Below, piece by piece: positions 11,992-35,660 of a stretch of 64,000 nt of DNA. Every line of letters starts with the position of its first letter. The first letter of the stretch is position 1. Both the position numbers and the translations under genes were made by a program. The notes under the pieces were generated by a model that had not been told where the DNA came from, made no database searches, and saw only the letters and a program-made list of their open reading frames with translations. This stretch comes from Escherichia coli (GTDB lineage: Bacteria; Pseudomonadota; Gammaproteobacteria; Enterobacterales; Enterobacteriaceae): NCBI RefSeq assembly GCF_003018115.1, contig NZ_CP027457.1; one strand, given 5' to 3'.

Positions 11992-12418
11992 ACCGGACTC
12001 CTCCTGCGATCCCTTCTGATACTGTCATCAGCATTACGTCATCCTCCGTCATGTCCGCCACATCCGGGGAAGCGGGGATAACTTCATTCCCTTCCGGGCC
12101 AAAGCGGACGCCTCCGGCAAGCCCTGCCGCTTTCTGCATCAGCACATCATCTTCAGGCTCTTCGTCAGCCTCACGCCGGTTCAGCAGACTGAAATCCAGC
12201 GGATGCATATCCGGATCGCTGAAAAACAGGCTGAGCACGGTGTACGTCAGCCCGGAAAAGTGCATATCCAGCAGAACATCATGAAAATAATGGGTACTGT
12301 AAAAGCGGTGCCAGTCGGCATACTCCGTGGATGACATCCCGGCAAGCATGGCACGCCAGTCGGGTCGCCCCATCTCTCGCGCCAGTTTCAGGGCAAAACT
12401 CAGCTCACCATCGAACAC
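11984..12418 (-). CDS. T: Tail assembly chaperone T (expressed as G-T fusion by -1 frameshift)
   Basis: 144 aa ORF in -1 frame overlapping 3' end of G; lambda T sequence. Confidence 0.8.
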   Translation of the reverse strand: MFDGELSFALKLAREMGRPDWRAMLAGMSSTEYADWHRFYSTHYFHDVLLDMHFSGLTYTVLSLFFSDPDMHPLDFSLLNRREADEEPEDDVLMQKAAGLAGGVRFGPEGNEVIPASPDVADMTEDDVMLMTVSEGIAGGVRYG

Positions 12419-12822
12419 TTTCCCGCAGAAACAGGCTCTGCAGGCCCGGCGTCCTCTGTCTGTTCAGGAGCATCATTCACCACAAACTCATACATACCGG
12501 ACAGCCGGTACACCACGTTTTCAGCATGAGAAATTGCCTCCGTGGGCCAGGTGGTAAGCACTTCCTGCTCAATCTGTTTAACGGCTTCATTCATGGAAGG
12601 CAGCTTTGTCTTCTTCGGATGGTTATGCCACAGGGACATCGCCACCAGAAACGCGCCGGTTCTGATGGCGTCTTCCACAGTAAACTTCCGGTTGCTGTCT
12701 GACTCCGCCTGTTCTGCCTGCCGTTTCATCAGGGCGAGATGCTCAATACGCTGCAGGGCTGACAGTTCAGAAAGCGTGACGGTCACACCGTTATGTTCAA
12801 ATGATTCGGTTTTCAGGAACAT
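12400..12822 (-). CDS. G: Tail assembly chaperone G
   Basis: 140 aa, lambda G sequence. Confidence 0.9.
   Translation of the reverse strand: MFLKTESFEHNGVTVTLSELSALQRIEHLALMKRQAEQAESDSNRKFTVEDAIRTGAFLVAMSLWHNHPKKTKLPSMNEAVKQIEQEVLTTWPTEAISHAENVVYRLSGMYEFVVNDAPEQTEDAGPAEPVSAGKCSMVS
12418..12424 (-). other. Programmed -1 ribosomal frameshift slippery heptamer G GGA AAG (G to G-T fusion)
   Basis: GCGGGAAAG read on minus strand 3 codons before end of G; T frame opens here. Confidence 0.7.
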
Positions 12823-12837
12823 CTCTGACTCCCCGGA

Positions 12838-13578
12838 TTAACTGGCGGTGACGGTGATTTCTGCAACCGCAGCAAACTCACCATTACCGGATACAACCGG
12901 AATGTTGACCTTGCCTGCAGCAACGCCGTTCACGGTGATGGTCATACCACTGACCGACACGGTGGCTTTTGTTTTATCCGCAGACACCGCACGAAAGCTC
13001 TTGTCGGTTACGCCCTCCGGCTGGAAGGCCACGGTCAGCGTGGTGCTCTGCCCTTTCACCACCGAGGTGCTGGCAGGCGTCACGGTCATGCCGGTTGCCG
13101 CTGTTACCGTGCTGCGATCTTCTGCCATCGACGGACGTCCCACATTGGTGACTTTCACCGTGCGGGTGATCACTTCCTTCGCCGTCACCGCCTTACCGAT
13201 ACTGCTGACCCAGCCACGGAACACATCGACCGTGCCGTTCGGGAAGCGGATTTTATAGGCACGGGTATCGCCTTCATTAAACCACGCCAGCAGCGCCTGC
13301 TGCCCCTGCTCTCCGGGCATCCACGCCAGCGTGAAGCTGGTATCTCCGGCAGATTTCTGCCCCTGCCCGGTCGCAGTCCAGTCTGCATCTTCATCATCGA
13401 GATAGCTGTCGTCATAGGACTCAGCGGTCAGTTCGCCGGGCGTCAGGTCTTTAACTTTTGCCAGACGCGACCAGTCAACGTCTGAAAGCGGATTCGCATA
13501 AGGGTCACCGCTCCCCTTATAAACCCACAGGGTGGTCCCGGCACCTTTCACCGGCATTGTAGGATTTGGTACAGGCAT
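12838..13578 (-). CDS. V: Major tail protein V (with C-terminal Ig-like domain)
   Basis: ORF track 12838-13608; start trimmed to Met11 to give the 246 aa lambda V. Confidence 0.9.
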
Positions 13579-13585
13579 AGCGTCC

Positions 13586-13981
13586 TCACATTTCATAGGT
13601 AATGACATAAGTCAGATCGGCTGAACTCCACAGGCCCGCATCATCGTCGCGCCGGTAGTCATAGCCGCTGGCCACCATACTGGTGATCAAATCTGACAGT
13701 GCCGGGATATCGCTCATCACCGGATAAATCCGGGACTCCATCCACGCATCCAGCTCTGAATCCGGCACCTGAGCAGGCAGGAAAACTTCGATATGCAGCT
13801 CCGCCTGCCAGGTATCGCTGTCCAGCTCTTCGCCCGTGTATTCAGCGCCGGTGAGATAAACGGCAACTGCCGGAAAATCCGCCTCATCAAAAACAGCGGG
13901 GCGACCATCAAAAAACGTCGCCCCGGTGTCATGCTTCTCCAGTGCATCCAGTACGGCTGCACGGAGTTCAGTATGTTTCAT
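13586..13981 (-). CDS. U: Tail terminator protein U
   Basis: 131 aa, lambda U sequence. Confidence 0.9.
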
Positions 13982-14556
13982 CGCTTTATTACCATCCTCA
14001 GTTGATGCTGCAGCGCATAGCCCAGCTCTTTCGGAAGACGTTCACGCCGTATCCGCTCAATATTCTGTTTAAACGCCGTGGTCAGCGGCACCGCCATCGG
14101 GATTTTCACCACATCAATGGGGTAACGGTTTTTCCCGGCCACACGCTGCATGACATGCCACCGGCCATTTTTCAGTTGCTGAATAAACGCGCCGGGAATA
14201 CGACGGTTACCCACCACAAGCACGCTGCCGCCACCTTTCAGGGATGAACGCTGCCCCTTTTTACGACGCCTGCGGCGCGAAAGGACAACCCGCGCATTAC
14301 CCAGCTTGATTACGGGCAAATCCCCCCGGTTAACTTTGATTCTGGCCTGCGGATTTTTGACCGTGGCCCTTTTCAGCCTGGCCCTTTCCTTTACCAGTTT
14401 CCGGCGTACCTTTGTCTCACGGGCAACTTGTGACGCCGACTGCGATATCGCGGATGAAGCAACGCGGTTAATGGCCATTGCGGCGGCACCAGGCACCGCC
14501 GTTTTGCTGATACGGCTGAGGTTTTCAACGGCCTGCTCAAGACCTTTTATGGCCAT
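13978..14556 (-). CDS. Z: Tail completion protein Z
   Basis: 192 aa, lambda Z sequence. Confidence 0.9.
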   Translation of the reverse strand: MAIKGLEQAVENLSRISKTAVPGAAAMAINRVASSAISQSASQVARETKVRRKLVKERARLKRATVKNPQARIKVNRGDLPVIKLGNARVVLSRRRRRKKGQRSSLKGGGSVLVVGNRRIPGAFIQQLKNGRWHVMQRVAGKNRYPIDVVKIPMAVPLTTAFKQNIERIRRERLPKELGYALQHQLRMVIKR

Positions 14557-14567
14557 ACATCCCCCTT

Positions 14568-14921
14568 TCAGCGGCGACGGTTAACGGCAGGCGGTACGCC
14601 CCGTCCAAGCCAGAGATGACAACTTCCGCCATCATCCGGCGAAACCCGATCTACCCAGAAATTTTCCTCACCGATGGTCAGCGTGTCTCCACGCCGCAGC
14701 TGCCGCACCTCATCAGTCCGGACAAACAGGGACGGGCTGGAGCCTTCAACGCGCACGCCCTGTCCGGCATAGCTGATATTTTCAGGGTCATCAAAAACAC
14801 CACGTATCACCGCACCTGACTGCTCACCGGATGTCATGGTGGCTGACGTTCCCATGTACCCGCGTATCGTTTCATCGGCGCGGGCAATGGCAGCATCGAA
14901 CAGGTTATCGAAATCAGCCAC
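14568..14921 (-). CDS. FII: Head-tail connector protein FII
   Basis: 117 aa, lambda FII sequence. Confidence 0.9.
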   Translation of the reverse strand: MADFDNLFDAAIARADETIRGYMGTSATMTSGEQSGAVIRGVFDDPENISYAGQGVRVEGSSPSLFVRTDEVRQLRRGDTLTIGEENFWVDRVSPDDGGSCHLWLGRGVPPAVNRRR

Positions 14922-14932
14922 AGCGCCTCCCG

Positions 14933-15331
14933 TTATTGCATTCTGGCCAGGCCGCGCTCTGTCATTTCGGCTGCCACACCGGCAGAGACACGAAACGCCG
15001 TTCCCGGCAGCACAAATGCCACAGGTTCATCCCGCGTGGCGTGAAGTGCATCAGTATGCAGCTTCACCAGTGCCACGACCGTGACCAGTTCAGACGTATC
15101 CAGAATCACGGTATCCGGCTGCGCTGATCCCACCTCATTTTCATGTCCGGTCAGCACATTTTCCCGGCTGAGAGGGGTGTCCTGACCGGCAGTTTCATCC
15201 GTGTCATCAAGCTCCTCTTCCAGCTCTGCCACACGGAGCGCCAGTTCTTCTTTCGTCCCCGTCAGGCTGACATCACGGTTCAGTTGTTCACCCAGCGAGC
15301 GGAGACGGGCAATCAGTTCATCTTTCGTCAT
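14933..15331 (-). CDS. FI: DNA packaging protein FI
   Basis: ORF track 14933-15370; trimmed to MTKDELIARL start, 132 aa as lambda FI. Confidence 0.85.
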   Translation of the reverse strand: MTKDELIARLRSLGEQLNRDVSLTGTKEELALRVAELEEELDDTDETAGQDTPLSRENVLTGHENEVGSAQPDTVILDTSELVTVVALVKLHTDALHATRDEPVAFVLPGTAFRVSAGVAAEMTERGLARMQ

Positions 15332-15372
15332 GGACTCCTCCACAGAGAAACAATGGCCCCGAAGGGCCATGA

Positions 15373-16398
15373 TTACGCCAGTTGTACGGACACGAACTCA
15401 TCAGGGTCAGCCAGCAGCATCAGCGGTGCTGACTGAATCATGGTGAACTCACGCGCCGGATCGCCGGTGGTCACCCAGTTTTTCGGGTAACGGGCAGAGG
15501 CGTTAATGCCTTCGCGCTGTGCGTCCGCATCCTGAATGCAGCCATAGGTGCGCAGACCGCGTGCCTGAGTGTTCCCCAGCACCATCGTGTTGTCCGGCAG
15601 GAAGTTCTTTTTGACGCCGTTTTCCACGTACTGTCCGGAATACACGACGATGGCCACATCGCCATACATCCCCTTATAGGACACCGCTTTGCCCAGGTCT
15701 TTCACCGCTGTCTCCAGCTCGGAATGAGAGCCACGACGGGTATCCAGCTTCTCCTTGACGGCTTTGAAGGAACGGAACAGCGCCCAGCCTTTCGGATCGA
15801 ACACGATGATATTCACCACACCGCTGGCGTTCAGCGCGTAGGCTTCGATATCGTCGGTCGGGTCATACGTGGACTTGTCACGCTTGCTCCACTCCGTGCC
15901 GCCGGACTGCGTGATGTTATTCTCCTCACTGCGGCCCATATCCACCTCAACCGGATCGAAGGCTTCACCGGTCATGGTGTATTTGCCCTTAAGCACGGCA
16001 GAAACTGCCTGCATCTCTTCGACCTGAGCAATGGCCAGCTCTTCGTCACGCATGTTCTGCATGATGATGCGACGGCGGCGGTAAGCCGGGTCCGCCAGAT
16101 TCTGCGGATCTTCATCCGGCAGGCGACGCAGGGTCATCTGCGGATTCACTTCATGCTTCGGCTTGACATATCCCGGCGTAAATTCAGAGGTGGAGCCGCC
16201 ACGGGAACGGATAACCTCACCGGAAACAATCGGCGAAACGTACAGCGCCATGTTTACCAGTCCCGGAATTTGTGAGAGATAGACTTTCTCCGTGGTGAAG
16301 GGATAGCTCTCACGGAAAAAGAGACGCAGAAACAGCGGATCAAACTTAAATTTCTGCTCATTTGCCGCCAGCAGTTGGGCGGTTGTGTACATCGACAT
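15373..16398 (-). CDS. E: Major capsid protein E
   Basis: 341 aa, lambda E sequence. Confidence 0.95.
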   Translation of the reverse strand: MSMYTTAQLLAANEQKFKFDPLFLRLFFRESYPFTTEKVYLSQIPGLVNMALYVSPIVSGEVIRSRGGSTSEFTPGYVKPKHEVNPQMTLRRLPDEDPQNLADPAYRRRRIIMQNMRDEELAIAQVEEMQAVSAVLKGKYTMTGEAFDPVEVDMGRSEENNITQSGGTEWSKRDKSTYDPTDDIEAYALNASGVVNIIVFDPKGWALFRSFKAVKEKLDTRRGSHSELETAVKDLGKAVSYKGMYGDVAIVVYSGQYVENGVKKNFLPDNTMVLGNTQARGLRTYGCIQDADAQREGINASARYPKNWVTTGDPAREFTMIQSAPLMLLADPDEFVSVQLA

Positions 16399-16454
16399 AA
16401 AAAAATCCCGTAAAAAAAAGCCGCACAGGCGGCCTTTAGTGATGAAGGGTAAAG

Positions 16455-16787
16455 TTAAACGATGCTGATTGCCGTTCCGGCAAACGCGGTCCGTTTTTTC
16501 GTCTCGTCGCTGGCAGCCTCCGGCCAGAGCACATCCTCATAACGGAACGTGCCGGACTTGTAGAACGTCAGCGTGGTGCTGGTCTGGTCAGCAGCAACCG
16601 CAAGAATGCCAACGGCAGCACCGTCGGTGGTGCCATCCCACGCAACCAGCTTACGGCTGGAGGTGTCCAGCATCAGCGGGGTCATTGCAGGCGCTTTCGC
16701 ACTCAATCCGCCGGGCGCGGTTGCGGTATGAGCCGGGTCACTGTTGCCCAGCGGCTGGTAATGGGTAAAGGTTTCTTTGCTCGTCAT
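16455..16787 (-). CDS. D: Capsid decoration protein D
   Basis: ORF track 16455-16793; trimmed to MTSKETF start, 110 aa as lambda D. Confidence 0.9.
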
Positions 16788-16796
16788 AAACATCCC

Positions 16797-17402
16797 TTAC
16801 ACTGGTGTGTTCAGCAAATCGTTAACGGCATCAGATGCCGGGTTACCTGCAGCCAGCGGTGCCGGTGCCCCCTGCATCAGACGATCCAGCGCAGTGTCAC
16901 TGCGCGCCTGTGCACTCTGTGGTGCTGCGGCCAGAATGCGGCGGGCCGTTTCCACGGTCATACCGGGGGTTTCTGCCAGCACGCGTGCCTGTTCTTCGCG
17001 TCCGTGAGCCTCCTCACAGTTGAGGATCCCCATAATGCGGCTGTTTTCTGCCGCAACCGCTGCGGTGATCTGCGCGTTCACGTCCGGCTGCGCCGCGCTG
17101 GCGTTTTCGCCCTCCGTCGCTGGCACCACGTCAGTAACGTCAGCCTGCGAAGCAGTGGCTGAAACAGTTGTTGATTGAGTCTCTTTGGTCATTCGCCCTC
17201 CTGAGAGACGGGATTTACGTGCATCCAGTGCATCACGCATGACGGTGATCGCATCGGTGCTGTTAACAAGTTCATCAGCCAGTCCGGCATCAATGGCCTC
17301 CTGACCGCTGTACACTGCAGCCTCGGTATCCAGCACAGCCTGCACGGACAGGCCGGTATATGCCGACACCTTCTGCGCAAACATCTGGCGGGTTGCGTCC
17401 AT
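16797..17402 (-). CDS. nu3: Scaffolding protein Nu3 (in-frame internal start within C)
   Basis: C-terminal 201 codons of C beginning MDATRQMFAQK, by analogy with lambda. Confidence 0.65.
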   Translation of the reverse strand: MDATRQMFAQKVSAYTGLSVQAVLDTEAAVYSGQEAIDAGLADELVNSTDAITVMRDALDARKSRLSGGRMTKETQSTTVSATASQADVTDVVPATEGENASAAQPDVNAQITAAVAAENSRIMGILNCEEAHGREEQARVLAETPGMTVETARRILAAAPQSAQARSDTALDRLMQGAPAPLAAGNPASDAVNDLLNTPV

Positions 17403-18096
17403 CCGGGACTGCAGTGTCTCCCGGACGTCATCCGGAAGATGGCTGTAGGGGTTGCCATCCACCTTATGGCTGCCGCTGTAAATCAGAGTGATTTCCACAC
17501 CCTGTTTCTCCAGCGCAGCACCGTAATTACTGTGAGCCATCATGACGCCGATGGAGCCTGTCCGGGCGGTCTGCGTGACCAGACGCCGGGAGGCGGCACT
17601 GGCAAGCAGCTGACCTGCACTGCAGTTCATGTCGTTGGCCAGCGCCCATACCGGTTTTATGTCACGCACACGGGCGATGATGTCAGCGCAGTCAAATGCC
17701 CCCGCCACCATCCCGCCGGGCGTGTCCATATCGAGCAGAATGCCGTCCACCATCGGATCGCTGGCAGCCTGTTGCAGACGGGCGATAATGCCGTTGTAAC
17801 CGGTCATCCCCGAGTACGGCTGCAGCGCCCGCGTCCGGCTGACCAGCGTGCCGGACACCGGCAGCACGGCGATGCCGTTCATGACCTGATAACTGCGGGC
17901 CTGTCGTGGTCCGTCATCATCACCGGATAATGCCAGCGTCGCGAGTGCCTCCTGGGCAGTCAGGCTGTCGCCGGACACCGCATCCATCAGGCGGCTGATC
18001 CCAAGCTGGCCTGCAAGCGCACAAAAGAAAACCCGCGCATAGGCGGGTTCAAGCATCAGCGGCTCATTAAAAGCCATGCTGGCAATATGCGGGAGA

Positions 18097-18116
<20 letters not shown>
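16797..18116 (-). CDS. C: Capsid assembly protease C
   Basis: 439 aa from GTG (CAC on plus strand at 18114-18116); 20-nt overlap with B as in lambda. Confidence 0.9.
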
Positions 18117-21797
<3,681 letters not shown>

Positions 21798-21823
<26 letters not shown>

Positions 21824-22343
21824 TCAGCAACCCCGGTATCAGTTCATCCAGCGCGGCTGCTTTGTTCATGGCTTTGATGATATCCCGTTTCAGGAAATCA
21901 ACATGTCGGTTTTCCAGTTCCGGAAAACGCCGCTGCACCGACAGGGGGATCCCGTCGAGAATACTGGCAATTTCACCTGCGATCCGCGACAGCACGAAAG
22001 TACAGAATGCGGTTTCCACCACTTCAGCGGAGTCTCTGGCATTTTTCAGCTCCTGTGCGTCGGCCTGCGCACGCGTAAGTCGATGGCGTTCGTACTCAAT
22101 AGTCCCTGGCTGGAGATCTGTCTCGCTGGCCTGCCGCAGTTCTTCAACTTCCCGGCGCAGCTTTTCGTTCTCAATTTCAGCATCCCTTTCGGCATACCAT
22201 CTTATAACGGCGGCAGAGTCATAAAGCACCTCATTACCCTTGCCACCGCCTCGCAGAACGGGCATTCCCTGTTCCTGCCAGTTCTGAATGGTACGGATAC
22301 TCGCACCGAAAATGTCAGCCAGCTGCTTTTTGTTGACTTCCAT
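21798..22343 (-). CDS. nu1: Terminase small subunit Nu1
   Basis: 181 aa, lambda Nu1 sequence with N-terminal HTH. Confidence 0.9.
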
Positions 22344-22344
22344 T

Positions 22345-22600
22345 GTTCATTCCACGGCCAAAAACAGAGAAAGGAAACGACAGAGGCCCAAAAGCTCGTT
22401 TTCAGCACCTGTCGTTTCCTTTCTTTTCAGGGGGTATTTTAAATAAAAACATTAAGTTACGACGAAGAAGAACGGAAATGCCTTAAACCGGAAAATTTTC
22501 ATAAATAGCGAAAACCCGCGAGGTCGCCGCCCCGTAACCTGTCGGATCGCCGGAAAGGACCCGCAAAATGATAATAATTATCATCTGCATGTCACAACGT
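22345..22600. other. cos packaging site (cosB / cosN / cosQ); cosN 12-nt cohesive end near 22521-22532
   Basis: Reverse complement of AGGTCGCCGCCC = GGGCGGCGACCT with lambda left-end and right-end flanking sequence on either side. Confidence 0.85.
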
Positions 22601-22731
22601 GCATCTACGCCATCAAACCACGTCAAATAATCAATTATGACGCAGGTATCATATTAATTGATCTGCATCAACTTAACGTAAAAACAACTTCAGACAATAC
22701 AAATCAGCGACACTGAATACGGGGCAACCTC

Positions 22732-22965
22732 ATGTCAACGAAGAACAGAACCCGCAGAACAACAACCCGCAACATCCGCTTTCCTAACCAAATGATTGAA
22801 CAAATTAACATCGCTCTTGAGCAAAAAGGGTCCGGGAATTTCTCAGCCTGGGTCATTGAAGCCTGCCGCCGGAGACTGTGCTCAGAAAAAAGAGTTTCTT
22901 CTGAAGCAAACAAAGAAAAGAGTGACATTACTGAATTGCTCAGAAAACAGGTCAGACCAGATTGA
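22732..22965 (+). CDS. Small prophage protein, YlcI/YnfO-like (DUF3950-type)
   Basis: 77 aa ORF just beyond cos; family assignment from memory only. Confidence 0.45.
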   Translation: MSTKNRTRRTTTRNIRFPNQMIEQINIALEQKGSGNFSAWVIEACRRRLCSEKRVSSEANKEKSDITELLRKQVRPD

Positions 22966-23007
22966 AGCAATTTAGATAATCGTGCAGACTACGCCCCCTC
23001 ATATCAC

Positions 23008-23433
23008 ATGGAAGGTTTATCTATGGATCAGGTAGTCATTTTTAAACAAATATTTGATAAAGTTCGAAACGATTTAAACTATCAATGGTTTTATTCTGAG
23101 CTAAAACGTCACAATGTCTCACATTACATTTACTATTTAGCCACAGAGAATGTTCATATTGTATTAAAAAATGATAATACAGTGTTATTAAAGGGCCTAA
23201 AAAACATTGTGTCTGTCAAATTTTCAAAGGATAGGCATCTTATAGAAACGACCTCTAATAAGCTGAAATCCAGAGAGATCACATTTCAGGAATACAGAAG
23301 AAACCTTGCTAAAGCAGGAGTTTTTCGGTGGGTTACAAATATCCACGAACAAAAAAGATATTACTATACCTTTGATAATTCATTACTATTTACTGAAAGC
23401 ATCCAGAAAACTACACAGATCTTACCACGCTAA
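23008..23433 (+). CDS. ydfO: YdfO/YbcV-like prophage protein (DUF1398-type)
   Basis: 141 aa, position between cos and gnsB as in K-12 Qin. Confidence 0.55.
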
Positions 23434-23584
23434 ACCATAACGTCCGGCTTCTCTCACTCCTGAGCCGGACTGCATTGGTTTAATAAAAACCATCAACAAT
23501 TGTGATTTAGATATTCGGAACCATTCAAATATAACAAAACCCCGTAAAAACGAGGTTTATGGATAAATTTTATTATTGAATACA

Positions 23585-23761
23585 TCAGATTAAATTAATC
23601 TTGACATCATAGCTTTCAAGACCCGTCATTTTTTCCCGTGCGGTAAACTGAATACTGGTAACTTCTTTCCCGGTCTTTTTCTTAAGTTCAATAATTTTTT
23701 TTGTTATATATTCAGAAATATCTGCTTCTGCTTTTGTTTTTAAGTTTTCAATATTCATCAT
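23585..23761 (-). CDS. gnsB: GnsB (GnsA/GnsB family)
   Basis: Hand-translated 58 aa MMNIENLKTKAEADISEYITKKIIELKKKTGKEVTSIQFTAREKMTGLESYDVKINLI; below ORF-track length cutoff. Confidence 0.7.
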   Translation of the reverse strand: MMNIENLKTKAEADISEYITKKIIELKKKTGKEVTSIQFTAREKMTGLESYDVKINLI

Positions 23762-23929
23762 TTCCTCTTTTAGTCTGTTATGACTTTCCAGTTACACAGT
23801 AAGTCGATTATATGGTGCAAACGTGTAAAAGATAAGATGAAACATCGCAATAATCAACATACGATAGTCTAAATTTTACACAAACAGACAAAGAGAATTT
23901 TCCTGAATTATCAATGCAATAGCATCAAA

Positions 23930-24202
23930 TCAACTCAAGAGCCTTATTGCTGCTTCCAGAATTTCTTCTGAAGTAACATGTCGATCCGCGGCTACATAAA
24001 TGACTTTATGATCTCCGGTCAGAGATGGAAACCCTGCGGCCATTACAGTAAGGTGTGTTTTTTCGCCATTTGGATATTCACGCATGATGGTGTTAACTCC
24101 AGTCATCGCTGGCACTACCACTGCTGGTTCAGAGTTAAAAAAAACTATGATTTTTTTCATGATGTTACCGTAGTATGTGAGTATCCATCGAATAGACACC
24201 AA
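23930..24202 (-). CDS. Hypothetical small protein at the ynfN position
   Basis: 90 aa ORF between gnsB and cspI; true start may be internal. Confidence 0.4.
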   Translation of the reverse strand: MVSIRWILTYYGNIMKKIIVFFNSEPAVVVPAMTGVNTIMREYPNGEKTHLTVMAAGFPSLTGDHKVIYVAADRHVTSEEILEAAIRLLS

Positions 24203-24431
24203 GCAAAAAAGCTCCCGAAGGAGCCTTCATTTTCACTTTTTTAAATCCAACGACAGACGGCTGGCATTTAAGTATTGTGAAATATTATCAAATGTAATCA
24301 TCATTGATTTACAAAAGATACATTTTGCCCCGAAAGGATTCATGTCAGAAACATCAAAAGATGATGTTCTATACTGGGAACCATGACAACACGGGCATCT
24401 AAAGTGAATATGGTTTGTAATATTGTCTACC

Positions 24432-24644
24432 TCAAAGCGCCACTACATGAACAGCGGCAGGACCTTTAGGTCCGTTCTCAATACCAAATTCAACTTCCTG
24501 ATTCTCAGTTAATGTTTTGAAATCGTTGCTCTGAATTGCTGAGAAATGGACAAACACATCTTTGCTGCCATCTTTCGGCGTGATGAAACCAAAACCTTTT
24601 TCAGGGTTAAACCATTTCACTAAACCAGTCATTTTGTTAGACAT
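24432..24644 (-). CDS. cspI: Cold shock protein CspI
   Basis: 70 aa CspA-family sequence [23 protein letters not shown]. Confidence 0.9.
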
Positions 24645-25006
24645 AATTATTACCTTTTGAAGAAATTAGCCCTTGGGCAGAATGGTCCGAAAAAAAATAT
24701 CAGAGAGAAAAACCAACAAGGAAATCTCAAGAGGTACAAATAATAAAATTATAACAATGACTGCTTCAGATAAATTTGTAACAAACCAGAACACCATTAA
24801 CGCATGATTAACCACCCATAGCAAGGATTACTTTTGTAAAGAAAAACACAGCAATGAAAGAATAGCTTTATTTATTAATAAAACGTGTCATTCTGATTAA
24901 GACCTTTTATCTTACCCTTAAGATTTCAGGAATTTTGGCTCATGGAAGAGTCCTTTTTATTTAAATTTTACATTCCGCGATGTAAATGTTCCGATTTAAT
25001 ATTACC

Positions 25007-26030
<1,024 letters not shown>

Positions 26031-26034
<4 letters not shown>

Positions 26035-26342
26035 AGATATTTATGATGAGGACGCTCGTGCTTATTGGCAGGATTTTCAATCTTAAAGGAGTACTGATGC
26101 TGCAGATAAGACTCAACTTTTTCTGACAATTTTTCTGCTACTTCCAGGAAGACTTGCCGGACGCTCCTTCTGGCTGCTGCCTCATAAAACTCCAGCGCAG
26201 CTCCTTCAACACGGTCCATGGCGACATCCAGGTCAAAAATTTCACCGTCAAAGCGTTCTTTGTCCTGTAAGGCTACAGTTACCGTAACTTTATTCTCAAA
26301 ATTACGGACTCCTTTCACAACCAGTTCATAGTCTTGAGTCAT
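26031..26342 (-). CDS. ydfR: YdfR-like protein of unknown function between holin and endolysin
   Basis: 103 aa, no TM segment; 4-nt overlap with endolysin start. Confidence 0.75.
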
Positions 26343-26346
26343 TGGA

Positions 26347-26562
26347 TTACTCTCCTCTCGCAGCCTTACGCCTGTCTTCTTTAATCTTGAAATAAAGATT
26401 TGTCAGATACGTCAGCAGGCCAAAAACCAGGCTACCCAGCACACCGATTGCAGCCCACTGTGACGGAGTTACTTTATCGAGTAACTGCAATGCCCAGAAA
26501 CCAGCATTACCCGCCGATGTGCCATAGGCAACACCTGTTGTTAACTTATCCATTGATTTCAT
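26347..26562 (-). CDS. essQ: Holin (S21-type pinholin family)
   Basis: ORF track 26347-26637; trimmed to [18 protein letters not shown] start with GAGGA Shine-Dalgarno, 71 aa, two TM segments. Confidence 0.85.
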
Positions 26563-26781
26563 ATCCTCACCCCGATGTACACGGATGGTGCAATATGTTT
26601 GAAAAGATCGGAGTCTACGGGGTAGTTTTGACAGCACACGTTGTTCTCAACGGCGCTAAAAAAACATACACATTAAAAATGTGGGTAATTATTTTGAAAG
26701 AAAGTCATATATAAAATAATAATACGAGAAATGTTTTCATATTTAGTGTACTGTATACGGCCATTTATACAGGAAAAGCCT

Positions 26782-26952
26782 ATGTCAGAACGTAAAAACT
26801 CAAAATCACGCCGTAATTATCTCGTTAAATGTTCCTGCCCAAACTGCACCCAAGAGTCAGAACACAGTTTTTCAAGAGTACAAAAAGGTGCCCTTTTGAT
26901 CTGCCCTCATTGCAACAAAGTATTCCAGACAAATCTTAAAGCTGTAGCCTGA
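26782..26952 (+). CDS. Small zinc-ribbon protein (C-x2-C ... C-x2-C)
   Basis: 56 aa from ATG after AGGAAAA; CPNC ... CPHC motifs. Confidence 0.5.
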   Translation: MSERKNSKSRRNYLVKCSCPNCTQESEHSFSRVQKGALLICPHCNKVFQTNLKAVA

Positions 26953-27017
26953 TTGATTTTATTAGTAACAAGTATTTTTTATATTTTAATAATATATTTA
27001 AAGCAGATAATAAAAAA

Positions 27018-27045
27018 CCCGCCTGAGCGGGTTTGAGATTGTGGT
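27018..27045 (-). terminator. Rho-independent terminator downstream of cspB
   Basis: GCGGG-loop-CCCGC stem followed by TTTTTT on minus strand. Confidence 0.5.
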
Positions 27046-27315
27046 GCTTTTTGTGGGAGTCATCCACTTACGCACTTTGTTTTGCCATGCCAGCAGTTAG
27101 CTTCTGCTGTAAAACTATTCATGCAGCAAACCTGCACTTCACCACAATGGTTAGCATACTTTTCCTGATTAAGATTTTGCCAAATATGCTAGCCATTGTT
27201 TCATGTATTGGACCTCCTTACTTTTTATTAAAGAGATCCAATATTCACTACTCTGTCCGTATCTCTACTCAGGCATCAGCCTTCTTCGTTATCGTATACA
27301 GACGAGCGATGAATT

Positions 27316-27531
27316 TTAATCAGTAATGATGACATTTGCTGCTGCAGGACCTTTAGCACCACTCTCTATAGAGAAGGTAACCTTTTGACCTTCAAATAAG
27401 GTTCGATAATTATCATTCTGAATCGCAGAAAAATGCACAAACACATCTTTACTACCATCAACAGGAGAAATAAAGCCGAAACCTTTATCAGCGTTAAACC
27501 ATTTTACTAAACCAGTCATTTTATTTGACAT
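27316..27531 (-). CDS. cspB: Cold shock protein CspB
   Basis: 71 aa CspA-family sequence [23 protein letters not shown]. Confidence 0.9.
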
Positions 27532-27831
27532 TCTACATTCCTTAACTTGAGCCTTTCGGCATAAATGGTTTGCATAACAGAAACGACTTCGTACTTAATT
27601 GGAGAGACTCAAAGAAGGAATAAGTGAATAACACCTGAAATGAGAACTGCTTTAGTAAACTACTTCGTATATCGTCTGTTCTTCAAACCGACGCAATCAT
27701 TAACGCATAGTTGAACATATGAAGCAATGTTTATTTTAGACATCCAGCCATCTTCAACCCCATCAAAAAACTATAGCTTTCTTCAGGAACGTGTGTATAG
27801 TGCGCCAAGTTATCAGTATTAAGGAATTTTT

Positions 27832-28044
27832 TTGTCCCGTAAAATGACAGGAATTGTCAAAACCTTTGACGGCAAAAGCGGCAAGGGTCTTATCACCCCA
27901 TCCGATGGTCGTATCGATGTCCAGCTTCATGTTTCAGCGCTCAATCTCCGCGATGCAGAAGAAATTACCACCGGATTACGCGTGGAATTTTGCCGGATAA
28001 ATGGTCTGCGTGGCCCTTCAGCTGCCAATGTTTACCTTTCATGA
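27832..28044 (+). CDS. cspF: Cold shock-like protein CspF
   Basis: 70 aa, [23 protein letters not shown], CspF/CspH subfamily. Confidence 0.85.
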
Positions 28045-28339
28045 GCTATATTAAAGCTTTAATTTCAGGCCCCATCGGATCACACATGGAGAGTTTTTAT
28101 GAATAACCCCGTCTGTCTTGATGACTGGTTGATTGGCTTTAAAAGCTTATGCTGTACTTTGGCCGTAATAGCTCTGCTAATAATATAATAAGCAGACTCA
28201 TTGTGTTTAGGGACATTGTACTGGAAGAAAACATTTTAAACATCAGGCAAATAACCAAGTCACCAGCTAAATAATAAGTTAACAGACATGAGTCCCGGGA
28301 TGAGATTCAACATTACCATTGCCCCATTTAAAGCACAAA

Positions 28340-28368
28340 ACCCGCTCATCAGCGGGTTTTCTACTTTT
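28340..28368. terminator. Bidirectional hairpin terminator between convergent cspF and Q gene
   Basis: CCCGCT-CATC-AGCGGG stem flanked by A-run and T-run. Confidence 0.45.
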
Positions 28369-28465
28369 TCTTAACGTCGGGTATACAAAGCCCATCGTTG
28401 AAAAAATTTTATCCATATTTTTTGAAAAATGCAAACATCATGTCGCCATCTTCAGCAAAAATCAT

Positions 28466-29248
28466 TTATCTCGTCACCTTCCTCAATTGCGCTTCCGCGT
28501 ATGCTTCTTCCTGCCAGCACTTTGTTACCAGTTTACCAATGACGTCCGCATACCCCTTATACCACTGATAATCGGTCAGGTCTGGTACCAGCTTCTGGAC
28601 ATGACGTCGTGCCAGCGTGGTCGGTAAACGACTAAACCGGTTTCCATTACAACGCCCACAAATCTTATATACCGGTACGCCATGAAACCGGGTTCTTTTT
28701 TCATCCAGAACAATCCCTTTACCCTTACACCCTCTGCACGCTGTGCTGGCTTCGCCCTTACCATGGCAATGCTGACATAGTTCCTTCACCCATTCTTCCT
28801 TGATTACAGATTCCCCGCGTCTGTAGTGTTTCACCACTTCGCGCAATACATTATAAAATCCCGTACCTGAACAATGCTCACAGCGAGCCTTACTTGCCGC
28901 AGACCTGGAGTAATCAGCAAAGGCAAAACTCACGAGGTAAGGAATAATCTGTAACCGGATTTCTTCACTCAATTTGTTCAATGTCGGGTTATCCAGTGCC
29001 ATCGCGTAATTTAGCAGGCCTTCAATCGCAAACTGAGGGTCCTGAACACCAACTTTTGCCAGAAATAAGGCCAACCCAAGTGGTGCTTTCGACTGCACCA
29101 TCCCCTGCGCTGCCATTACATCCGTAATTGTTAAACAACCGGTGCCTGTCGCTGGAGCGTCATCGCTCAATTTTGGAGATTTTGGGGAGTAATATTTTGG
29201 TAAGGCTTCAAGGTTCATGCTCGTTCTCCACTTACGCCAGTACGCCAA
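28466..29248 (-). CDS. quuQ: Late-gene antiterminator Q (phage 82/21-type Q family)
   Basis: 260 aa ORF with Cys-rich zinc-binding region; start may be internal Met at about 29218. Confidence 0.85.
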   Translation of the reverse strand: MAYWRKWRTSMNLEALPKYYSPKSPKLSDDAPATGTGCLTITDVMAAQGMVQSKAPLGLALFLAKVGVQDPQFAIEGLLNYAMALDNPTLNKLSEEIRLQIIPYLVSFAFADYSRSAASKARCEHCSGTGFYNVLREVVKHYRRGESVIKEEWVKELCQHCHGKGEASTACRGCKGKGIVLDEKRTRFHGVPVYKICGRCNGNRFSRLPTTLARRHVQKLVPDLTDYQWYKGYADVIGKLVTKCWQEEAYAEAQLRKVTR

Positions 29249-30281
29249 TTGTCAGCGCGCGATCGATAAAACGAAATATCAGCTCCAGTTGGGAGCCATA
29301 CTTATCTTCAAATGCCACTGTATCCGTATGCAGCTCGTTGTGATGCTTTCTGCACAAAGGCAACACAAAGAGATCATGTGCTTTTGTTCCCATTCCGCCC
29401 TGCCCGTGACCAATCAGATGATGCGGATCGTCGGCTGGCATACCGCAGCAAGCACACGGCTGTGTCTTAACCCAACGTGTGTATTTCTCCTTAACCCAGC
29501 GGCGACGTTTAGGCAGCTTCATGAAAGATTCCGGAGACTCTGGATCAACGGTGATGCTTACCACCGTCTTTTCCTGTGGTGATTTTTGTTGCTGGTGGGC
29601 GTAAGGCAACGGTGCAAGATTTTTTGTGCGTTGTTTCAATATGCTGGTGGCGGTCTGCTCTCCCGGTACGATGTCGCTTTCGCGGTACACCGAGCAGATT
29701 TTTTCCGCTGGTAATCCCAGCGAACGACGCGATACAGCCTCAGGTAGTGCATCCACCACCTGATTGCAGACCGCCCACCAGGATAATTCAGCCAAAGATA
29801 ATTCCCGCTCCTGCGTACCGCTTATTGCGTGACGGATGACGTCAATCACCCATGCTGTCAGATTTTGTTGAGCAAGCAGCTCCAGTGATTCCGATGTCTG
29901 GTCACGCAGTTGGTTGTCGCAGTGCCAGCACAACACCATTGCGCCGGTACCATAACGGTGAATGACTGTTTCAGTGTGATGGTAATCGCCATTAGGCCAC
30001 TGGCAGGATGTAACATGACGTAATAGCCAGTCGGACAATGCGCCAACGCCGCCAGCAGCACGAATCACCCGTTCGTTACTAAAAAACGGCAGCAATGTTT
30101 TGTCTTCCGCCAGCGGCTGGCGAACGGCAGGAACGACTCCGGATGGCAGATTACGCATGCTTTTTGGTTCCGGTTCCACCAGCACTCGAGGATTATGAAA
30201 TATCTGTATGGATTCACGGCCCGGCTTAAGGACCACCAGCCCAAGCTCAGGCACCAGAACAGGTCTAAGTAATACCCGCAC
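29232..30281 (-). CDS. ydfU: YdfU-like DUF968 protein with C-terminal HNH-like Cys/His motif
   Basis: ORF track 29232-30320; trimmed to GTG with GGAGG Shine-Dalgarno, giving 349 aa. Confidence 0.75.
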   Translation of the reverse strand: MRVLLRPVLVPELGLVVLKPGRESIQIFHNPRVLVEPEPKSMRNLPSGVVPAVRQPLAEDKTLLPFFSNERVIRAAGGVGALSDWLLRHVTSCQWPNGDYHHTETVIHRYGTGAMVLCWHCDNQLRDQTSESLELLAQQNLTAWVIDVIRHAISGTQERELSLAELSWWAVCNQVVDALPEAVSRRSLGLPAEKICSVYRESDIVPGEQTATSILKQRTKNLAPLPYAHQQQKSPQEKTVVSITVDPESPESFMKLPKRRRWVKEKYTRWVKTQPCACCGMPADDPHHLIGHGQGGMGTKAHDLFVLPLCRKHHNELHTDTVAFEDKYGSQLELIFRFIDRALTIGVLA

Positions 30282-30282
30282 G

Positions 30283-30561
30283 TTACCTCCAGATCCGTTG
30301 CTGGAAAGTGCGGGACGCACGTGGTGGGCGTTCGGAATAAGGCAGCCTGACAGAGATTATCCAGTGCCGATAGTCGAGACTGAGAGCTTTCTTAACCTCG
30401 AACCCGCGCCTGCGGTAAGAATGAATCAGCCATTCGGCCTGTTCTGCAGTGCATGGAGGGTGCTGGAACCATTCAGACTTGAATGCGTGAGAATACCGCC
30501 CGTGCGTGCAGGCAAGAACGGGCGAATTATCAGAATTGTAATATTTTGCGTTGCGTGCCAT
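30283..30561 (-). CDS. Hypothetical 92-aa protein, translationally coupled to ydfU
   Basis: ORF stop lies 1 nt from ydfU GTG start; no family recognised. Confidence 0.4.
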   Translation of the reverse strand: MARNAKYYNSDNSPVLACTHGRYSHAFKSEWFQHPPCTAEQAEWLIHSYRRRGFEVKKALSLDYRHWIISVRLPYSERPPRASRTFQQRIWR

Positions 30562-30627
30562 CGGTTTTCTCCGGTGGCACGGTGTTACTCAGCGGGAGTT
30601 CAGCCCCGCGCAAGATTGTAGATGAGT

Positions 30628-30879
30628 TTATTCTCCTGAAAAAGCAGAAAAGCCAGCTTTTATTCCGATCTCTTTCAATGCCTGTAATGAAGTGACAAAC
30701 TCACCTTCGCGCAAGATAAATCCGTCCGTGACCCGAGCATCCACAAAATTAATTAACGCAGCCCCATTCTTTCGCAAACACATAATGCGGTAATGACTAA
30801 CAAGATTTCCATTTTCAACGCACACAGCATAGAGGCCATCTTCACAAAAAATTTTACGCAGTTCTTCGATGTTCATCAT
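30628..30879 (-). CDS. Small prophage protein, possibly Rem
   Basis: 83 aa MMNIEELRKIFCEDGLYAV; position between ydfU and hokD; identity recalled with low certainty. Confidence 0.45.
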   Translation of the reverse strand: MMNIEELRKIFCEDGLYAVCVENGNLVSHYRIMCLRKNGAALINFVDARVTDGFILREGEFVTSLQALKEIGIKAGFSAFSGE

Positions 30880-31095
30880 CAGAATCCTTCCGGATAATTA
30901 GCTCTCCCCTTTAAGGGACCATCCCTCTTATCCCTGCGCGCTACTTAAGTATTTTTGATTCTATTCCGGCACCGTCCAGAACTTCAAACGCGTTGAAAAT
31001 AAAAACAAAAACCCGCCGAAGCGGGTTAAGTGCGGGTGCGTTGAGGATGCCTGCCACATCAGAGGTGGCGAGGGATTTCTCCCCCGCCGGGTCTC

Positions 31096-31251
31096 TTACT
31101 CCTCAGGTTCGTAAGCTGTGAAGACAGCGACCTCCGTCTGGCCGGTTCGGATTCGTACCTCGCAGAGGTCTTTCCTCGTTACCAGTGCCGTCACTATGAC
31201 GGTTAAACAGATGACGATCAGGGCGATTAACATCGCCTTTTGCTGCTTCAT
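31096..31251 (-). CDS. hokD: Hok-family type I toxin HokD (RelF)
   Basis: Hand-translated 51 aa MKQQKAMLIALIVICLTVIVTALVTRKDLCEVRIRTGQTEVAVFTAYEPEE; antisense Sok RNA expected just upstream on plus strand. Confidence 0.85.
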   Translation of the reverse strand: MKQQKAMLIALIVICLTVIVTALVTRKDLCEVRIRTGQTEVAVFTAYEPEE

Positions 31252-31322
31252 AGCCTGCTTCTCCTGTCAACGCAAAGCAGAAGTGTCACCTTCGGTGCGA
31301 AACAGAGATGTCATGCTTTGGT

Positions 31323-31610
31323 TCAGAGAATGCGTTTGACCGCCTCGCTATATACTTCCGAGCGTTCTCTTTTCCCAACAGAAATCACGAAAACGACAAC
31401 TTTCTCGTCTATAACCTGGTATACAAGGCGATAGCCTGAAGACCGGAGCTTAATCTTGTAACAATCAGGCATACCACGGAGCTTGTTTGCTTCAATCCGG
31501 GGTGACTCAAGTACTTCAACCAGCTTCTTTTTCAACTGTTCACGTACCGTCGAGCCCAGCTTTCGCCATTCCTTTAGTGCCCGCTCGTCAAAATCCAGAA
31601 AATACGCCAT
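31323..31610 (-). CDS. relE: RelE mRNA interferase toxin
   Basis: 95 aa, RelE sequence. Confidence 0.9.
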   Translation of the reverse strand: MAYFLDFDERALKEWRKLGSTVREQLKKKLVEVLESPRIEANKLRGMPDCYKIKLRSSGYRLVYQVIDEKVVVFVISVGKRERSEVYSEAVKRIL

Positions 31611-31849
31611 CAGAGTTCATCCAGCGTCACACGTACTGGCTTAGGATTACGAAGCCGTTCTTTCACTATCTCCACAAGTTCAGCATCTTCATCACTCAGG
31701 AGTGTCTGTTTGAACGGCAAGCGTTCATTGTCAGCGATATACTCGAGCATGAGACGAAGCGCTTCAGAAGGAGTTACACCCATTTTTTCAAGCGCGGCGT
31801 AAGAACGCGCTTTAAGTTCATCGTCAATACGCAGGTTAATGCTACCCAT
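31610..31849 (-). CDS. relB: RelB antitoxin
   Basis: 79 aa, RelB sequence; 1-nt overlap with relE. Confidence 0.9.
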   Translation of the reverse strand: MGSINLRIDDELKARSYAALEKMGVTPSEALRLMLEYIADNERLPFKQTLLSDEDAELVEIVKERLRNPKPVRVTLDEL

Positions 31850-31873
31850 GTCTTACACCTCTTGTAATTACAA

Positions 31874-32179
31874 ATGTCATTACAAGTATCGCACTACAAC
31901 ATGCTTAGGGCAAGTCACGAAGGAAGTCAGAAAGTAGTCGTAAGAACGGTGATCACTGTCCGCTTTGTGCCAGGAGCAGCCATTGCTAAGTCCATCCTGT
32001 ATTGTGCAGGTCAGCTCGTTTTTAAAGAGTCCGGCCATCATCTTACTGGTACAGACACCATATACTTTGTGACGGTCAGGCTACATATGCACAACTCAAC
32101 TTATTCATCTATTTTTTGCTTTAGCATGTCAGTGTTGCTTTCTCGTCGGCGGGTGAGCGGTGACCTGACCTGTCGATAA
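31874..32179 (+). CDS. Hypothetical protein at the ydfV position
   Basis: 101 aa ORF, low-complexity, weak coding appearance. Confidence 0.35.
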   Translation: MSLQVSHYNMLRASHEGSQKVVVRTVITVRFVPGAAIAKSILYCAGQLVFKESGHHLTGTDTIYFVTVRLHMHNSTYSSIFCFSMSVLLSRRRVSGDLTCR

Positions 32180-32381
32180 AGGAACGTAACACGTTTTATG
32201 CAACACCCGCATGCGGCAGAAAATTATTGCCGAACGTTTACCCCTGTCAACAAGCTTTACTTTCTGAGGCGCGCCAGCCCGCGAGGAAAACAATCTGAAC
32301 ATCAAACAATTAATGACACAAGAAATACGATTAAAGATTTTTTTGTGCATGCCGATAGTGCTTTTTTAAAAGGAGAAATCT

Positions 32382-32714
32382 ATGTCTGTCACAATTCAGG
32401 GAAATACCTCAACCGTTATTTCAAACAACTCCGCCCCGGAAGGAACATCAGAAATAGCCAAAATCACAAGACAAATTCAGGTGCTGACTGAAAAGCTTGG
32501 GAAAATCTCATCGGAAGAGGGGATGACGACACAGCAGAAAAAAGAAATGGCTGCATTGGTACAGAAGCAAATTGAAAGCCTCTGGGCTCAACTGGAGCAG
32601 TTGTTAAGGCAGCAGGCAGAGAAAAAGAATGAAGACGCGACAGTTCAGCCTGATAAAAAAGAAGAGAAAAAAGACGATACAAATACCGCTGGCACCATTG
32701 ATATTTACGTCTAA
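32382..32714 (+). CDS. flxA: FlxA (FliA-regulated protein)
   Basis: 110 aa MSVTIQGNTSTVISNNSAPEGTSEIAKITRQIQVLTEKL. Confidence 0.85.
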   Translation: MSVTIQGNTSTVISNNSAPEGTSEIAKITRQIQVLTEKLGKISSEEGMTTQQKKEMAALVQKQIESLWAQLEQLLRQQAEKKNEDATVQPDKKEEKKDDTNTAGTIDIYV

Positions 32715-32724
32715 GTGACAGCCG

Positions 32725-32752
32725 TATTGTGGCCCTCATCGGGCCACTTTTC
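32725..32752 (+). terminator. Rho-independent terminator after flxA
   Basis: TGGCCC-TCATC-GGGCCA stem followed by T-rich run. Confidence 0.5.
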
Positions 32753-32899
32753 GCCATCAGCCTTTTCTTTAAAGACATATTATCTTTGTATCATTTCTGA
32801 TAGTTAACATTACAAGATATAAGTAATGGACGCACTCCCAATTAGTCTATTTAAATCGCCACGAGTTTAACTGACAACCCATGATCAATTATGAATTGC

Positions 32900-35652: not shown

Positions 35653-35660
35653 TCAAAACT
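35653..35660. repeat. 8-bp target site duplication TCAAAACT (left copy) of IS66-family element
   Basis: Identical 8-mer immediately outside both inverted repeats. Confidence 0.7.

What the first reader, a model, noticed from the sequence alone, without database searches (positions are those of the whole stretch)
22345..22600. Intact cos site retained in a chromosomal prophage
The 12-nt cohesive-end sequence plus lambda-type cosB and cosQ flanks are present next to Nu1, so the terminase recognition elements needed for packaging are intact.
Basis: partly seen in the sequence, partly recalled or inferred. Interest (0 to 1): 0.2.

Follow-up and report, generated by a model that had tools for sequence, protein, structure and literature searches.

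The report
Ordinary lambda-type cos site in prophage
The stretch is a complete, textbook lambda-type DNA-packaging (cos) site sitting where every lambda-like prophage has one, identical to that of an isolated plaque-forming phage and present in about 85% of complete E. coli genomes, so it is real but ordinary.

Summary
On the minus strand of window 22352-22589 lies a full lambda-type cos: cosQ (22556-22562), the exact 12-nt cohesive end GGGCGGCGACCT (22521-22532), I2, R3, the IHF region I1, R2 and R1. It sits directly upstream of full-length Nu1 and A genes.

Within the subsites there is one difference from lambda: G to A at lambda bp 54 (window 22479). This lies in the nominal R3 but outside the bp 55-63 terminase contact segment.

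The 561 bp around cos, and the Nu1 and A proteins, are 100% identical to phage PhiR42_1. That phage is listed as an isolated temperate phage used in a plaque-assay panel, so this allele supports packaging. The same cosB side, including A54, is found in the K-12 cryptic prophage Qin and in 43 IMG/VR contigs.

The host element is a full-length Qin-type prophage at the ydfJ/rspB locus with a lambda head-tail module. A cos in the prophage interior follows from the permuted prophage map and is not a special retention. Lambda-type cos occurs in 4590 of 5426 complete E. coli genomes.

Verdict: real, very probably functional, already known, low interest.

The parts
22556..22562 (-). cosQ, the 7-bp packaging-termination signal GGGTCCT (lambda bp 48473-48479)
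   Evidence: Exact match. The lambda coordinates of cosQ come from my recollection of Wieczorek & Feiss 2001, which I could not open. Independently of that, lambda 48472-48485 is identical in the window.
22521..22532 (-). cosN cohesive-end sequence GGGCGGCGACCT. The nick sites flank it, and the conserved CG flanks give 22519-22534
   Evidence: Exact and the only match in the window.
22483..22515 (-). I2 segment (lambda bp 18-50) between cosN and cosB; it sets the spacing and carries a static bend
   Evidence: Identical to lambda. Extent taken from PMC4856287.
22468..22483 (-). R3, the critical gpNu1 (TerS) binding site (lambda bp 50-65), with the natural variant G54A at window 22479
   Evidence: 15 of 16 bases match lambda, and bp 55-63 are unchanged. 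Extent from PMC9026076. The same allele is in PhiR42_1, K-12 Qin and 43 IMG/VR contigs.
22442..22454 (-). I1 core, the best IHF-consensus match between R3 and R2 (lambda bp 79-91)
   Evidence: Lambda bp 74-101 is identical in the window. In lambda this 13-mer has one mismatch to WATCAANNNNTTR. The exact extent of I1 was not verified from the literature.
22409..22424 (+). R2, a gpNu1 binding site inverted relative to R3 and R1 (lambda bp 109-124)
   Evidence: Exact 16-mer CTGTCGTTTCCTTTCT. It forms an inverted repeat with R1.
22368..22383 (-). R1, the accessory gpNu1 binding site (lambda bp 151-166)
   Evidence: Exact 16-mer. The R2-R1 spacer is 1 bp shorter than in lambda, as in all 7 other isolated phages aligned besides PhiR42_1.
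21798..22343 (-). Nu1 (small terminase subunit, TerS), 181 aa
   Evidence: 98.3% identical to lambda Nu1. The differences are K48R, A75T and L132I, none in the recognition helix 17-24 or the wing 31-39. Identical to PhiR42_1 Nu1.
19898..21823 (-). A (large terminase subunit, TerL), 641 aa
   Evidence: 99.4% identical to lambda gpA. The differences are T151S, D185E, P231L and I459V. Identical to PhiR42_1 A.
1..47481 (-). Full-length Qin-type lambdoid prophage. It runs off the window start inside stf. The attL core is at about 47467-47481 and int at 46134-47429
   Evidence: 98.7-99.9% identical to PhiR42_1. Lambda genes Nu1 to I are all full length. The flanks are rspB/rspA on the right and, in a genome identical to window 1-7186, ydfJ' on the left.
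35661..38115 (+). ISEc22 (IS66 family) insertion inside the prophage, with the 8-bp target duplication TCAAAACT. It is not part of cos but bears on the packageable length

Best explanation
This is the functional cos site of a lambda-like temperate phage in its prophage state. The phage is a full-length Qin-type prophage carrying a lambda head-tail module.

It is inert while late genes are repressed. The steps after induction are inferred from lambda biology. [quoted passage not shown] The cosB-bearing end, held by terminase, docks on the portal. DNA is then translocated starting with Nu1, that is, towards decreasing window coordinates. At the next cos, cosQ together with cosN allows the terminating cut, which leaves 12-nt 5' cohesive ends.

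Shown here: sequence and arrangement of every subsite, integrity of the terminase and head-tail genes, and identity to the cos, Nu1 and A of an isolated phage. Inferred: actual cleavage and packaging in this strain.
For: - Base-by-base alignment to lambda cos shows cosQ, cosN, I2, R2 and R1 identical and R3 15 of 16.
- Nu1 to I are all full length and ungapped, 96-100% identical to the lambda proteins. The Nu1 recognition helix and wing are unchanged.
- The 561 bp around cos are 100% identical to phage PhiR42_1, and the Nu1 and A proteins are identical too. PhiR42.1 is listed as an isolated temperate phage in the strain table of a study that ran a plaque-assay panel of lambda-related temperate phages.
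- Every other difference from lambda in the region is shared with several isolated lambdoid phages.
- The A54 allele recurs in 43 IMG/VR contigs and in K-12 Qin.
- The predicted excised length of about 50.35 kb is 103.8% of lambda. That is inside the roughly 78-105% packaging range, which I take from established knowledge.
Against: - No experiment was done on this strain.
- G54A changes the G of the CGTTTCC motif shared by R1, R2 and R3, and it sits next to the contact segment. A quantitative effect such as IHF dependence is not excluded.
- The prophage carries a 2455-bp ISEc22 that PhiR42_1 lacks. It lies between the replication genes and Q, so it could be polar on late-gene activation, and it pushes genome length close to the upper packaging limit.
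- The stf-distal end of the prophage lies outside the window and was read only in a closely matching genome.
Confidence: 0.9

Rival explanations
1. The cos sequence is intact but the prophage no longer produces phage, for example because ISEc22 is polar or because of a defect outside the window. In that case cos acts only as a passive target. A superinfecting or co-resident lambda-specificity terminase could cut it, which would stimulate recombination at cos, rescue the module into other phages, or start in-situ packaging of Nu1-side and then host DNA.
For: - There is an ISEc22 insertion absent from PhiR42_1.
- Many E. coli genomes keep this cos in clearly deleted Qin remnants.
- E. coli genomes that have a lambda-type cos carry a median of 2.
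- Cutting of defective-prophage cos and cos-proximal recombination were proposed from lambda-DLP12 recombinant junctions (PMC3945230).
- K-12 Qin shows a lambda-identical patch next to cosN.
Against: - Every gene checked inside the window is full length.
- From window 21 kb to 47.5 kb the prophage differs from the functional PhiR42_1 by only a handful of bases apart from the IS.
- The IS lies in a stretch that the PhiR42_1 record leaves unannotated (between CDS 10163-10273 and 10405-10524), and PhiR42_1 itself tolerates another IS in the same transcription path.
- The predicted genome length is still within the packaging limit.
Confidence: 0.2
2. G54A weakens R3, so this cos is a partly crippled allele. 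Packaging from it would be inefficient or IHF-dependent, like the lambda R3 bp 58 change, which makes plaque formation IHF-dependent.
For: - Position 54 is the G of the CGTTTCC motif conserved in all three lambda R sites.
- R3 is the most mutation-sensitive R site, and the bp 58 change gives IHF dependence (PMC4669245 and PMC9026076).
- Among the 9 isolated phages aligned, only PhiR42_1 has A54.
Against: - bp 54 lies outside the NMR-defined contact segment 55-63 and outside the genetically implicated bp 56, 58 and 59.
- PhiR42.1, with this exact cos, Nu1 and A, is an isolated temperate phage in a plaque-assay panel.
- The allele is widespread.
- Phages 2H10 and Stx1_112808 carry a change at the neighbouring bp 53, so this edge of R3 varies naturally.
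Confidence: 0.1
3. The resemblance to cos is a chance or degenerate match with no relation to packaging.
For: The 12-mer alone, with up to 1 mismatch allowed, appears in 32 of 100 shuffles of the window.
Against: There is a colinear alignment of about 560 bp to lambda cos at roughly 97% identity, continuing into 18 kb of lambda structural genes at 98.6%.
Confidence: 0

Closest known systems
[quoted passage not shown]
   Same: 100% identical over the 561 bp spanning ynfO-side flank, cos and the Nu1 start. The Nu1 and A proteins are identical. The Qin-type genome organisation is the same.
   Different: The window prophage has an extra ISEc22 at 35661-38115 and diverges by about 1-6% per kb in the head-tail region, window 0-20 kb.
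cos of bacteriophage lambda (J02459)
   Same: cosQ, cosN, I2, R2 and R1 are identical, with the same order, orientation and cosN-cosB spacing. The cognate Nu1 recognition helix and wing are identical.
   Different: R3 carries G54A. There are nine further changes: eight substitutions in spacers (lambda 48471, 48486, 73, 102, 134, 145, 176 and others further upstream of cosQ) and a 1-bp deletion at lambda bp 138 in the R2-R1 spacer. Most of these are shared with other wild lambdoid phages, so the lambda reference is the outlier. Early, immunity and lysis genes are Qin-type, not lambda-type.
cos and nohA of the cryptic prophage Qin of E. coli K-12 MG1655
   Same: Same chromosomal locus (ydfJ/rspB). 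99.85% identity from nohA through the lysis and csp region. The cosN and cosB side is identical, including A54.
   Different: K-12 Qin has lost window 678-21814 (A to stf), so its cos has no cognate large terminase or heads. K-12 carries the lambda base at 10 positions on the cosQ side, window 22549-22608.
cos of cryptic prophage DLP12 (nohD) of E. coli K-12
   Same: A lambda-type cos between lysis genes and a Nu1 homologue in a chromosomal prophage. Recombinant junctions cluster next to it, and its adjacent R, Rz and nu1 genes function when moved into lambda (PMC3945230).
   Different: It is a different prophage at a different locus. It was not aligned here.

Membership tests
lambda-type complex cos site (cosQ-cosN-I2-cosB[R3-I1-R2-R1]) | A 12-bp cohesive-end sequence closely matching GGGCGGCGACCT, with conserved CG flanks at the nick sites | tested here: met
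   Exact 12-mer at 22521-22532 on the minus strand, and the flanks are identical to lambda.
lambda-type complex cos site (cosQ-cosN-I2-cosB[R3-I1-R2-R1]) | The 7-bp cosQ upstream of cosN, which is highly conserved among lambda-like phages | tested here: met
   GGGTCCT is exact at 22556-22562 with the same distance to cosN as in lambda. Conservation is stated in PMC4669245.
lambda-type complex cos site (cosQ-cosN-I2-cosB[R3-I1-R2-R1]) | The I2 segment and an unchanged cosN-to-cosB spacing (even a 3-bp deletion is severely defective) | tested here: met
   Lambda bp 1-53 is identical with no indel. The requirement is from PMC9026076 and PMC4856287.
lambda-type complex cos site (cosQ-cosN-I2-cosB[R3-I1-R2-R1]) | Three R sites in the order R3-I1-R2-R1, with R2 inverted | tested here: met
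   R3 is at 22468-22483 (15 of 16, G54A, contact bp 55-63 intact). R2 is at 22409-22424, inverted. R1 is at 22368-22383.
lambda-type complex cos site (cosQ-cosN-I2-cosB[R3-I1-R2-R1]) | An IHF site (I1) between R3 and R2 | tested here: met
   Lambda bp 74-101 is identical in the window. The best IHF-consensus 13-mer is the same as in lambda. IHF binding itself was not tested.
lambda-type complex cos site (cosQ-cosN-I2-cosB[R3-I1-R2-R1]) | Location immediately upstream of cognate TerS and TerL genes with a matching recognition helix | tested here: met
   Nu1 starts 25 bp after R1. Residues 17-24 and 31-39 are identical to lambda. A is full length.
lambda-type complex cos site (cosQ-cosN-I2-cosB[R3-I1-R2-R1]) | Cleavage by terminase that gives 12-nt 5' overhangs and supports packaging | not testable with these tools
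   Indirect evidence only: the identical cos, Nu1 and A occur in the isolated phage PhiR42.1.
Qin-type lambdoid prophage | Integration between ydfJ' and rspB, with DicA/DicC immunity, DicF, csp genes, and the relBE, hokD and ydfO/ynfO/gnsB cargo | tested here: met
   Colinear with K-12 Qin and the strain 26561 Qin remnant. DicF, sok and the cspA elements were found by Rfam. The att cores were compared.
Gram-negative PICI cos (Rpp-redirected packaging) | cosN followed by an island-specific cosB and an rpp gene instead of TerS, with no morphogenetic genes | tested here: not met
   cosB is lambda-type and is followed by Nu1, A and a complete head-tail module.

The most novel reading that the evidence does not exclude
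The A54 allele of R3, shared by the Qin lineage and PhiR42.1, may be a natural cosB variant that measurably shifts terminase affinity or IHF dependence. Together with the lambda-identical patch on the cosQ side of K-12 Qin, it would give natural evidence that chromosomal cos sites are cut and repaired by heterologous lambda-type terminases, making prophage cos sites recombination entry points.
Probability: 0.1. Interest if true: 0.2.

Novelty: already known. Interest (0 to 1): 0.05.

Why it matters
It matters little. It confirms that this prophage has everything needed in cis, and the terminase in trans, for lambda-style packaging. That is useful for annotating the element as probably inducible and for predicting virion DNA ends at window 22521 and 22532. 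Lambda cos is among the best-characterised DNA sites in biology. This allele already exists in an isolated phage and in K-12 Qin, and lambda-type cos is present in about 85% of complete E. coli genomes.

Tried and rejected
- Papers I could not open: Wieczorek & Feiss 2001 (cosQ definition), Cue & Feiss 1993 and Brenes & Laub 2025. The cosQ coordinates therefore rest on my recollection plus the statement in PMC4669245 that cosQ is a conserved 7-bp site. The phage status of PhiR42.1 rests on the GenBank record and the strain table of PMC13190303.
- A literature search for 'cosQ/48473' with substring matching returned only unrelated papers. A search for lambda qin111 returned only citing papers, so I could not document whether Qin's cos was tested historically.
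- Comparing N15 R3 at the position equivalent to bp 54 was uninformative, because the two cosB sequences are too divergent to align base for base.
- An exact IHF-consensus search found no perfect site in the window or in lambda. The same 1-mismatch site is present in both.
- A second cos in the window was looked for and not found.
- A PICI-type cos was considered and rejected, because lambda-type cosB and Nu1/A are present.

Full report
**What is at the coordinates**

Window 21900-23400 and its ORFs show, on the minus strand, a 181-aa Nu1 homologue (21798-22343) followed by a 641-aa A homologue (19898-21823), then W and B. Upstream of Nu1 is a 390-bp non-coding stretch, bounded on the other side by a ynfO-type ORF (22732-22965, plus strand).

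I joined the right and left ends of lambda J02459 and aligned them to the reverse complement of window 22280-22840. The alignment is colinear and gap-free except for one missing base. The coordinate mapping is:
- lambda bp n (1-137) corresponds to window 22533-n;
- lambda bp n of 139 or more corresponds to window 22534-n;
- lambda right-end bp m corresponds to window 71035-m.

**Subsites**

- The 12-nt cohesive end GGGCGGCGACCT is exact at 22521-22532 and is the only such site in the window.
- GGGTCCT is exact at 22556-22562. I recall this as the 7-bp cosQ, lambda 48473-48479, from Wieczorek & Feiss 2001; PMC4669245 confirms only that cosQ is a conserved 7-bp site.
- I2 (bp 18-50; PMC4856287) is identical.
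- R3 (bp 50-65; PMC9026076) is at 22468-22483 with one change, G54A at window 22479.
- Lambda bp 74-101, which holds the IHF region I1, is identical.
- R2 (22409-22424, inverted) and R1 (22368-22383) are exact copies of the 16-mer CTGTCGTTTCCTTTCT and form the expected inverted repeat.
- The 238-bp fragment used as a complete functional cos (lambda 48446-182) corresponds to window 22352-22589.

**Is it more than chance?**

The 12-mer alone would not be. The region, however, is 96.8% identical to lambda over 559 bp and continues into 18 kb of lambda structural genes at 98.6%.

**The base changes**

The other differences from lambda are 48471, 48486, 73, 102, 134, a deletion of 138, 145 and 176, plus several further upstream of cosQ. 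All lie in spacers, and most are shared by other isolated lambdoid phages (PhiR34_1, PhiR26_1, Turner, 2H10, PhiR30_1, mEp332 and an Stx1 phage). At several of these positions the lambda reference is the outlier.

Only G54A touches a named site. According to PMC9026076, TerS contacts bp 55-63, and packaging-relevant mutations are known at bp 56, 58 and 59. Position 54 is next to these but not among them.

Several lines of evidence show the allele is tolerated.
- The whole 561-bp query is 100% identical to phage PhiR42_1 (PV340562, propagation host ECOR13).
- The window's Nu1 and A proteins are identical to that phage's.
- The exact 70-nt cosN-to-R3 string with A54 also occurs in 43 IMG/VR contigs.
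- K-12's Qin has the same cosN and cosB side.

**The trans-acting parts**

Nu1 differs from lambda at K48R, A75T and L132I. None of these lies in the recognition helix (residues 17-24) or the wing (31-39). A differs at four positions. All lambda genes from Nu1 to I have full-length, ungapped counterparts at 96-100% identity.

**The element**

The window prophage matches PhiR42_1 at 98.7-99.9% from window 90 to 47482 in reverse orientation. It is colinear with the Qin locus of K-12 and of strain 26561. Integrase and the attL core lie at about 47467-47481, next to rspB. The window starts inside stf.

In strain CFS3246, which is 100% identical to window 1-7186, the prophage ends at a truncated ydfJ. 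It is therefore a full-length Qin-type phage with a lambda morphogenetic module.

K-12's cryptic Qin is the same element with window 678-21814 deleted.

Relative to PhiR42_1 the window carries a 2455-bp ISEc22 with an 8-bp target duplication. This gives a predicted excised genome of about 50.35 kb, or 103.8% of lambda. That is near but inside the roughly 105% upper packaging limit, which I take from established knowledge and did not verify here.

**How it works**

The mechanism is lambda's, as reviewed in PMC4669245, PMC9026076 and PMC4856287.
2. gpA nicks cosN.
3. The cosB end stays bound by terminase, docks on the portal, and is packaged Nu1-first (leftwards in the window).
4. cosQ plus cosN at the next cos in a concatemer terminates packaging.

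In the integrated single prophage the site is silent. It is used only after excision and concatemer formation, or it could be cut by another lambda-specificity terminase. These steps are inferred by homology. No cleavage was tested.

**Comparison and novelty**

Having cos in the prophage interior follows directly from integration at att of a circle closed at cos. Lambda-type cos matching this 256-bp query is found in 4590 of 5426 complete E. coli genomes, with a median of 2 places in the genomes that have it, and it persists even in deleted remnants. A functional role for cos in defective prophages is already documented for DLP12 (PMC3945230). The finding is correct and well placed, but it is already known and of low interest.

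**Rivals**

- The prophage might be non-inducible, for example through ISEc22 polarity or a defect outside the window, leaving cos as a passive target. This cannot be excluded with sequence alone. I give it about 0.2. It is about the prophage rather than about the site.
- A weakened R3 is unlikely given PhiR42.1 (about 0.1).
- A chance match is excluded.

Noticed in passing
window 1-677 and 21815-30977, compared with L016 (K-12 MG1655 1630000-1645000): The cryptic prophage Qin of K-12 is this prophage with window 678-21814 deleted (most of A through the N-terminal part of stf). This explains the nohA-stfQ junction in K-12. The two retained blocks are 99.85% identical to the window.
   Followed up: partly
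window 22549-22608 (cosQ side of cosN): Ten of the 13 mismatches between K-12 Qin and the window across 9.2 kb cluster in the 60 bp directly next to cosN on the cosQ side. At all ten, K-12 Qin carries the lambda base. This looks like a lambda-templated gene-conversion patch at a cut cos in K-12, a former lambda lysogen. It fits the view, cited in PMC3945230, that breaks at cos stimulate recombination on the side not protected by terminase.
   Followed up: partly
window 35661-38115: An ISEc22 (IS66 family; tnpA, tnpB and a 511-aa transposase) is inserted with the 8-bp target duplication TCAAAACT (35653-35660 and 38116-38123). It is absent from PhiR42_1 but is probably present at this position in about 94 complete E. 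coli genomes (those covering at least 80% of a 5-kb query across the insertion). It lies between the replication genes and Q and raises the predicted phage genome to about 50.35 kb, 103.8% of lambda.
   Followed up: partly
window about 20000-21000 (inside gene A): Divergence from PhiR42_1 is almost nil from window 21 kb to 47.5 kb but is 3 to about 60 differences per kb from 0 to 20 kb. This indicates a mosaic recombination joint inside the terminase large-subunit gene, close to cos.
   Followed up: no
L003/L004/L005 (PhiR42_1, PV340562): The GenBank record repeats about 781 bp at its two ends (positions 3-783 versus 47888-48668, 99.6% identical), probably an artefact of circular assembly. The true unit length is about 47.9 kb, not 48,668 bp.
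   Followed up: yes
window 22483-22626 (minus strand): A 47-aa ORF spans cosN and is annotated as a hypothetical protein in PhiR42_1 and several other phage records. A gene crossing the cohesive-end cut would be split in virion DNA, so the annotation is probably spurious.
   Followed up: no
window 24405-24790, 27300-27692, 34538-34709, 42624-42675: Rfam finds two cspA-type thermoregulator leaders (upstream of cspI and cspB), a sok antitoxin RNA (hokD locus) and DicF. This is the standard Qin RNA cargo, retained here in the full-length prophage.
   Followed up: no
window 47467-47481, compared with L015 about 10058-10073: The attL copy in the window reads GAATTTATGGATTTC, whereas attP of PhiR42_1 and attR in strain CFS3246 read GAATTATGGATTTC. 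That is a one-base difference in the T run within the core shared by the att sites.
   Followed up: no
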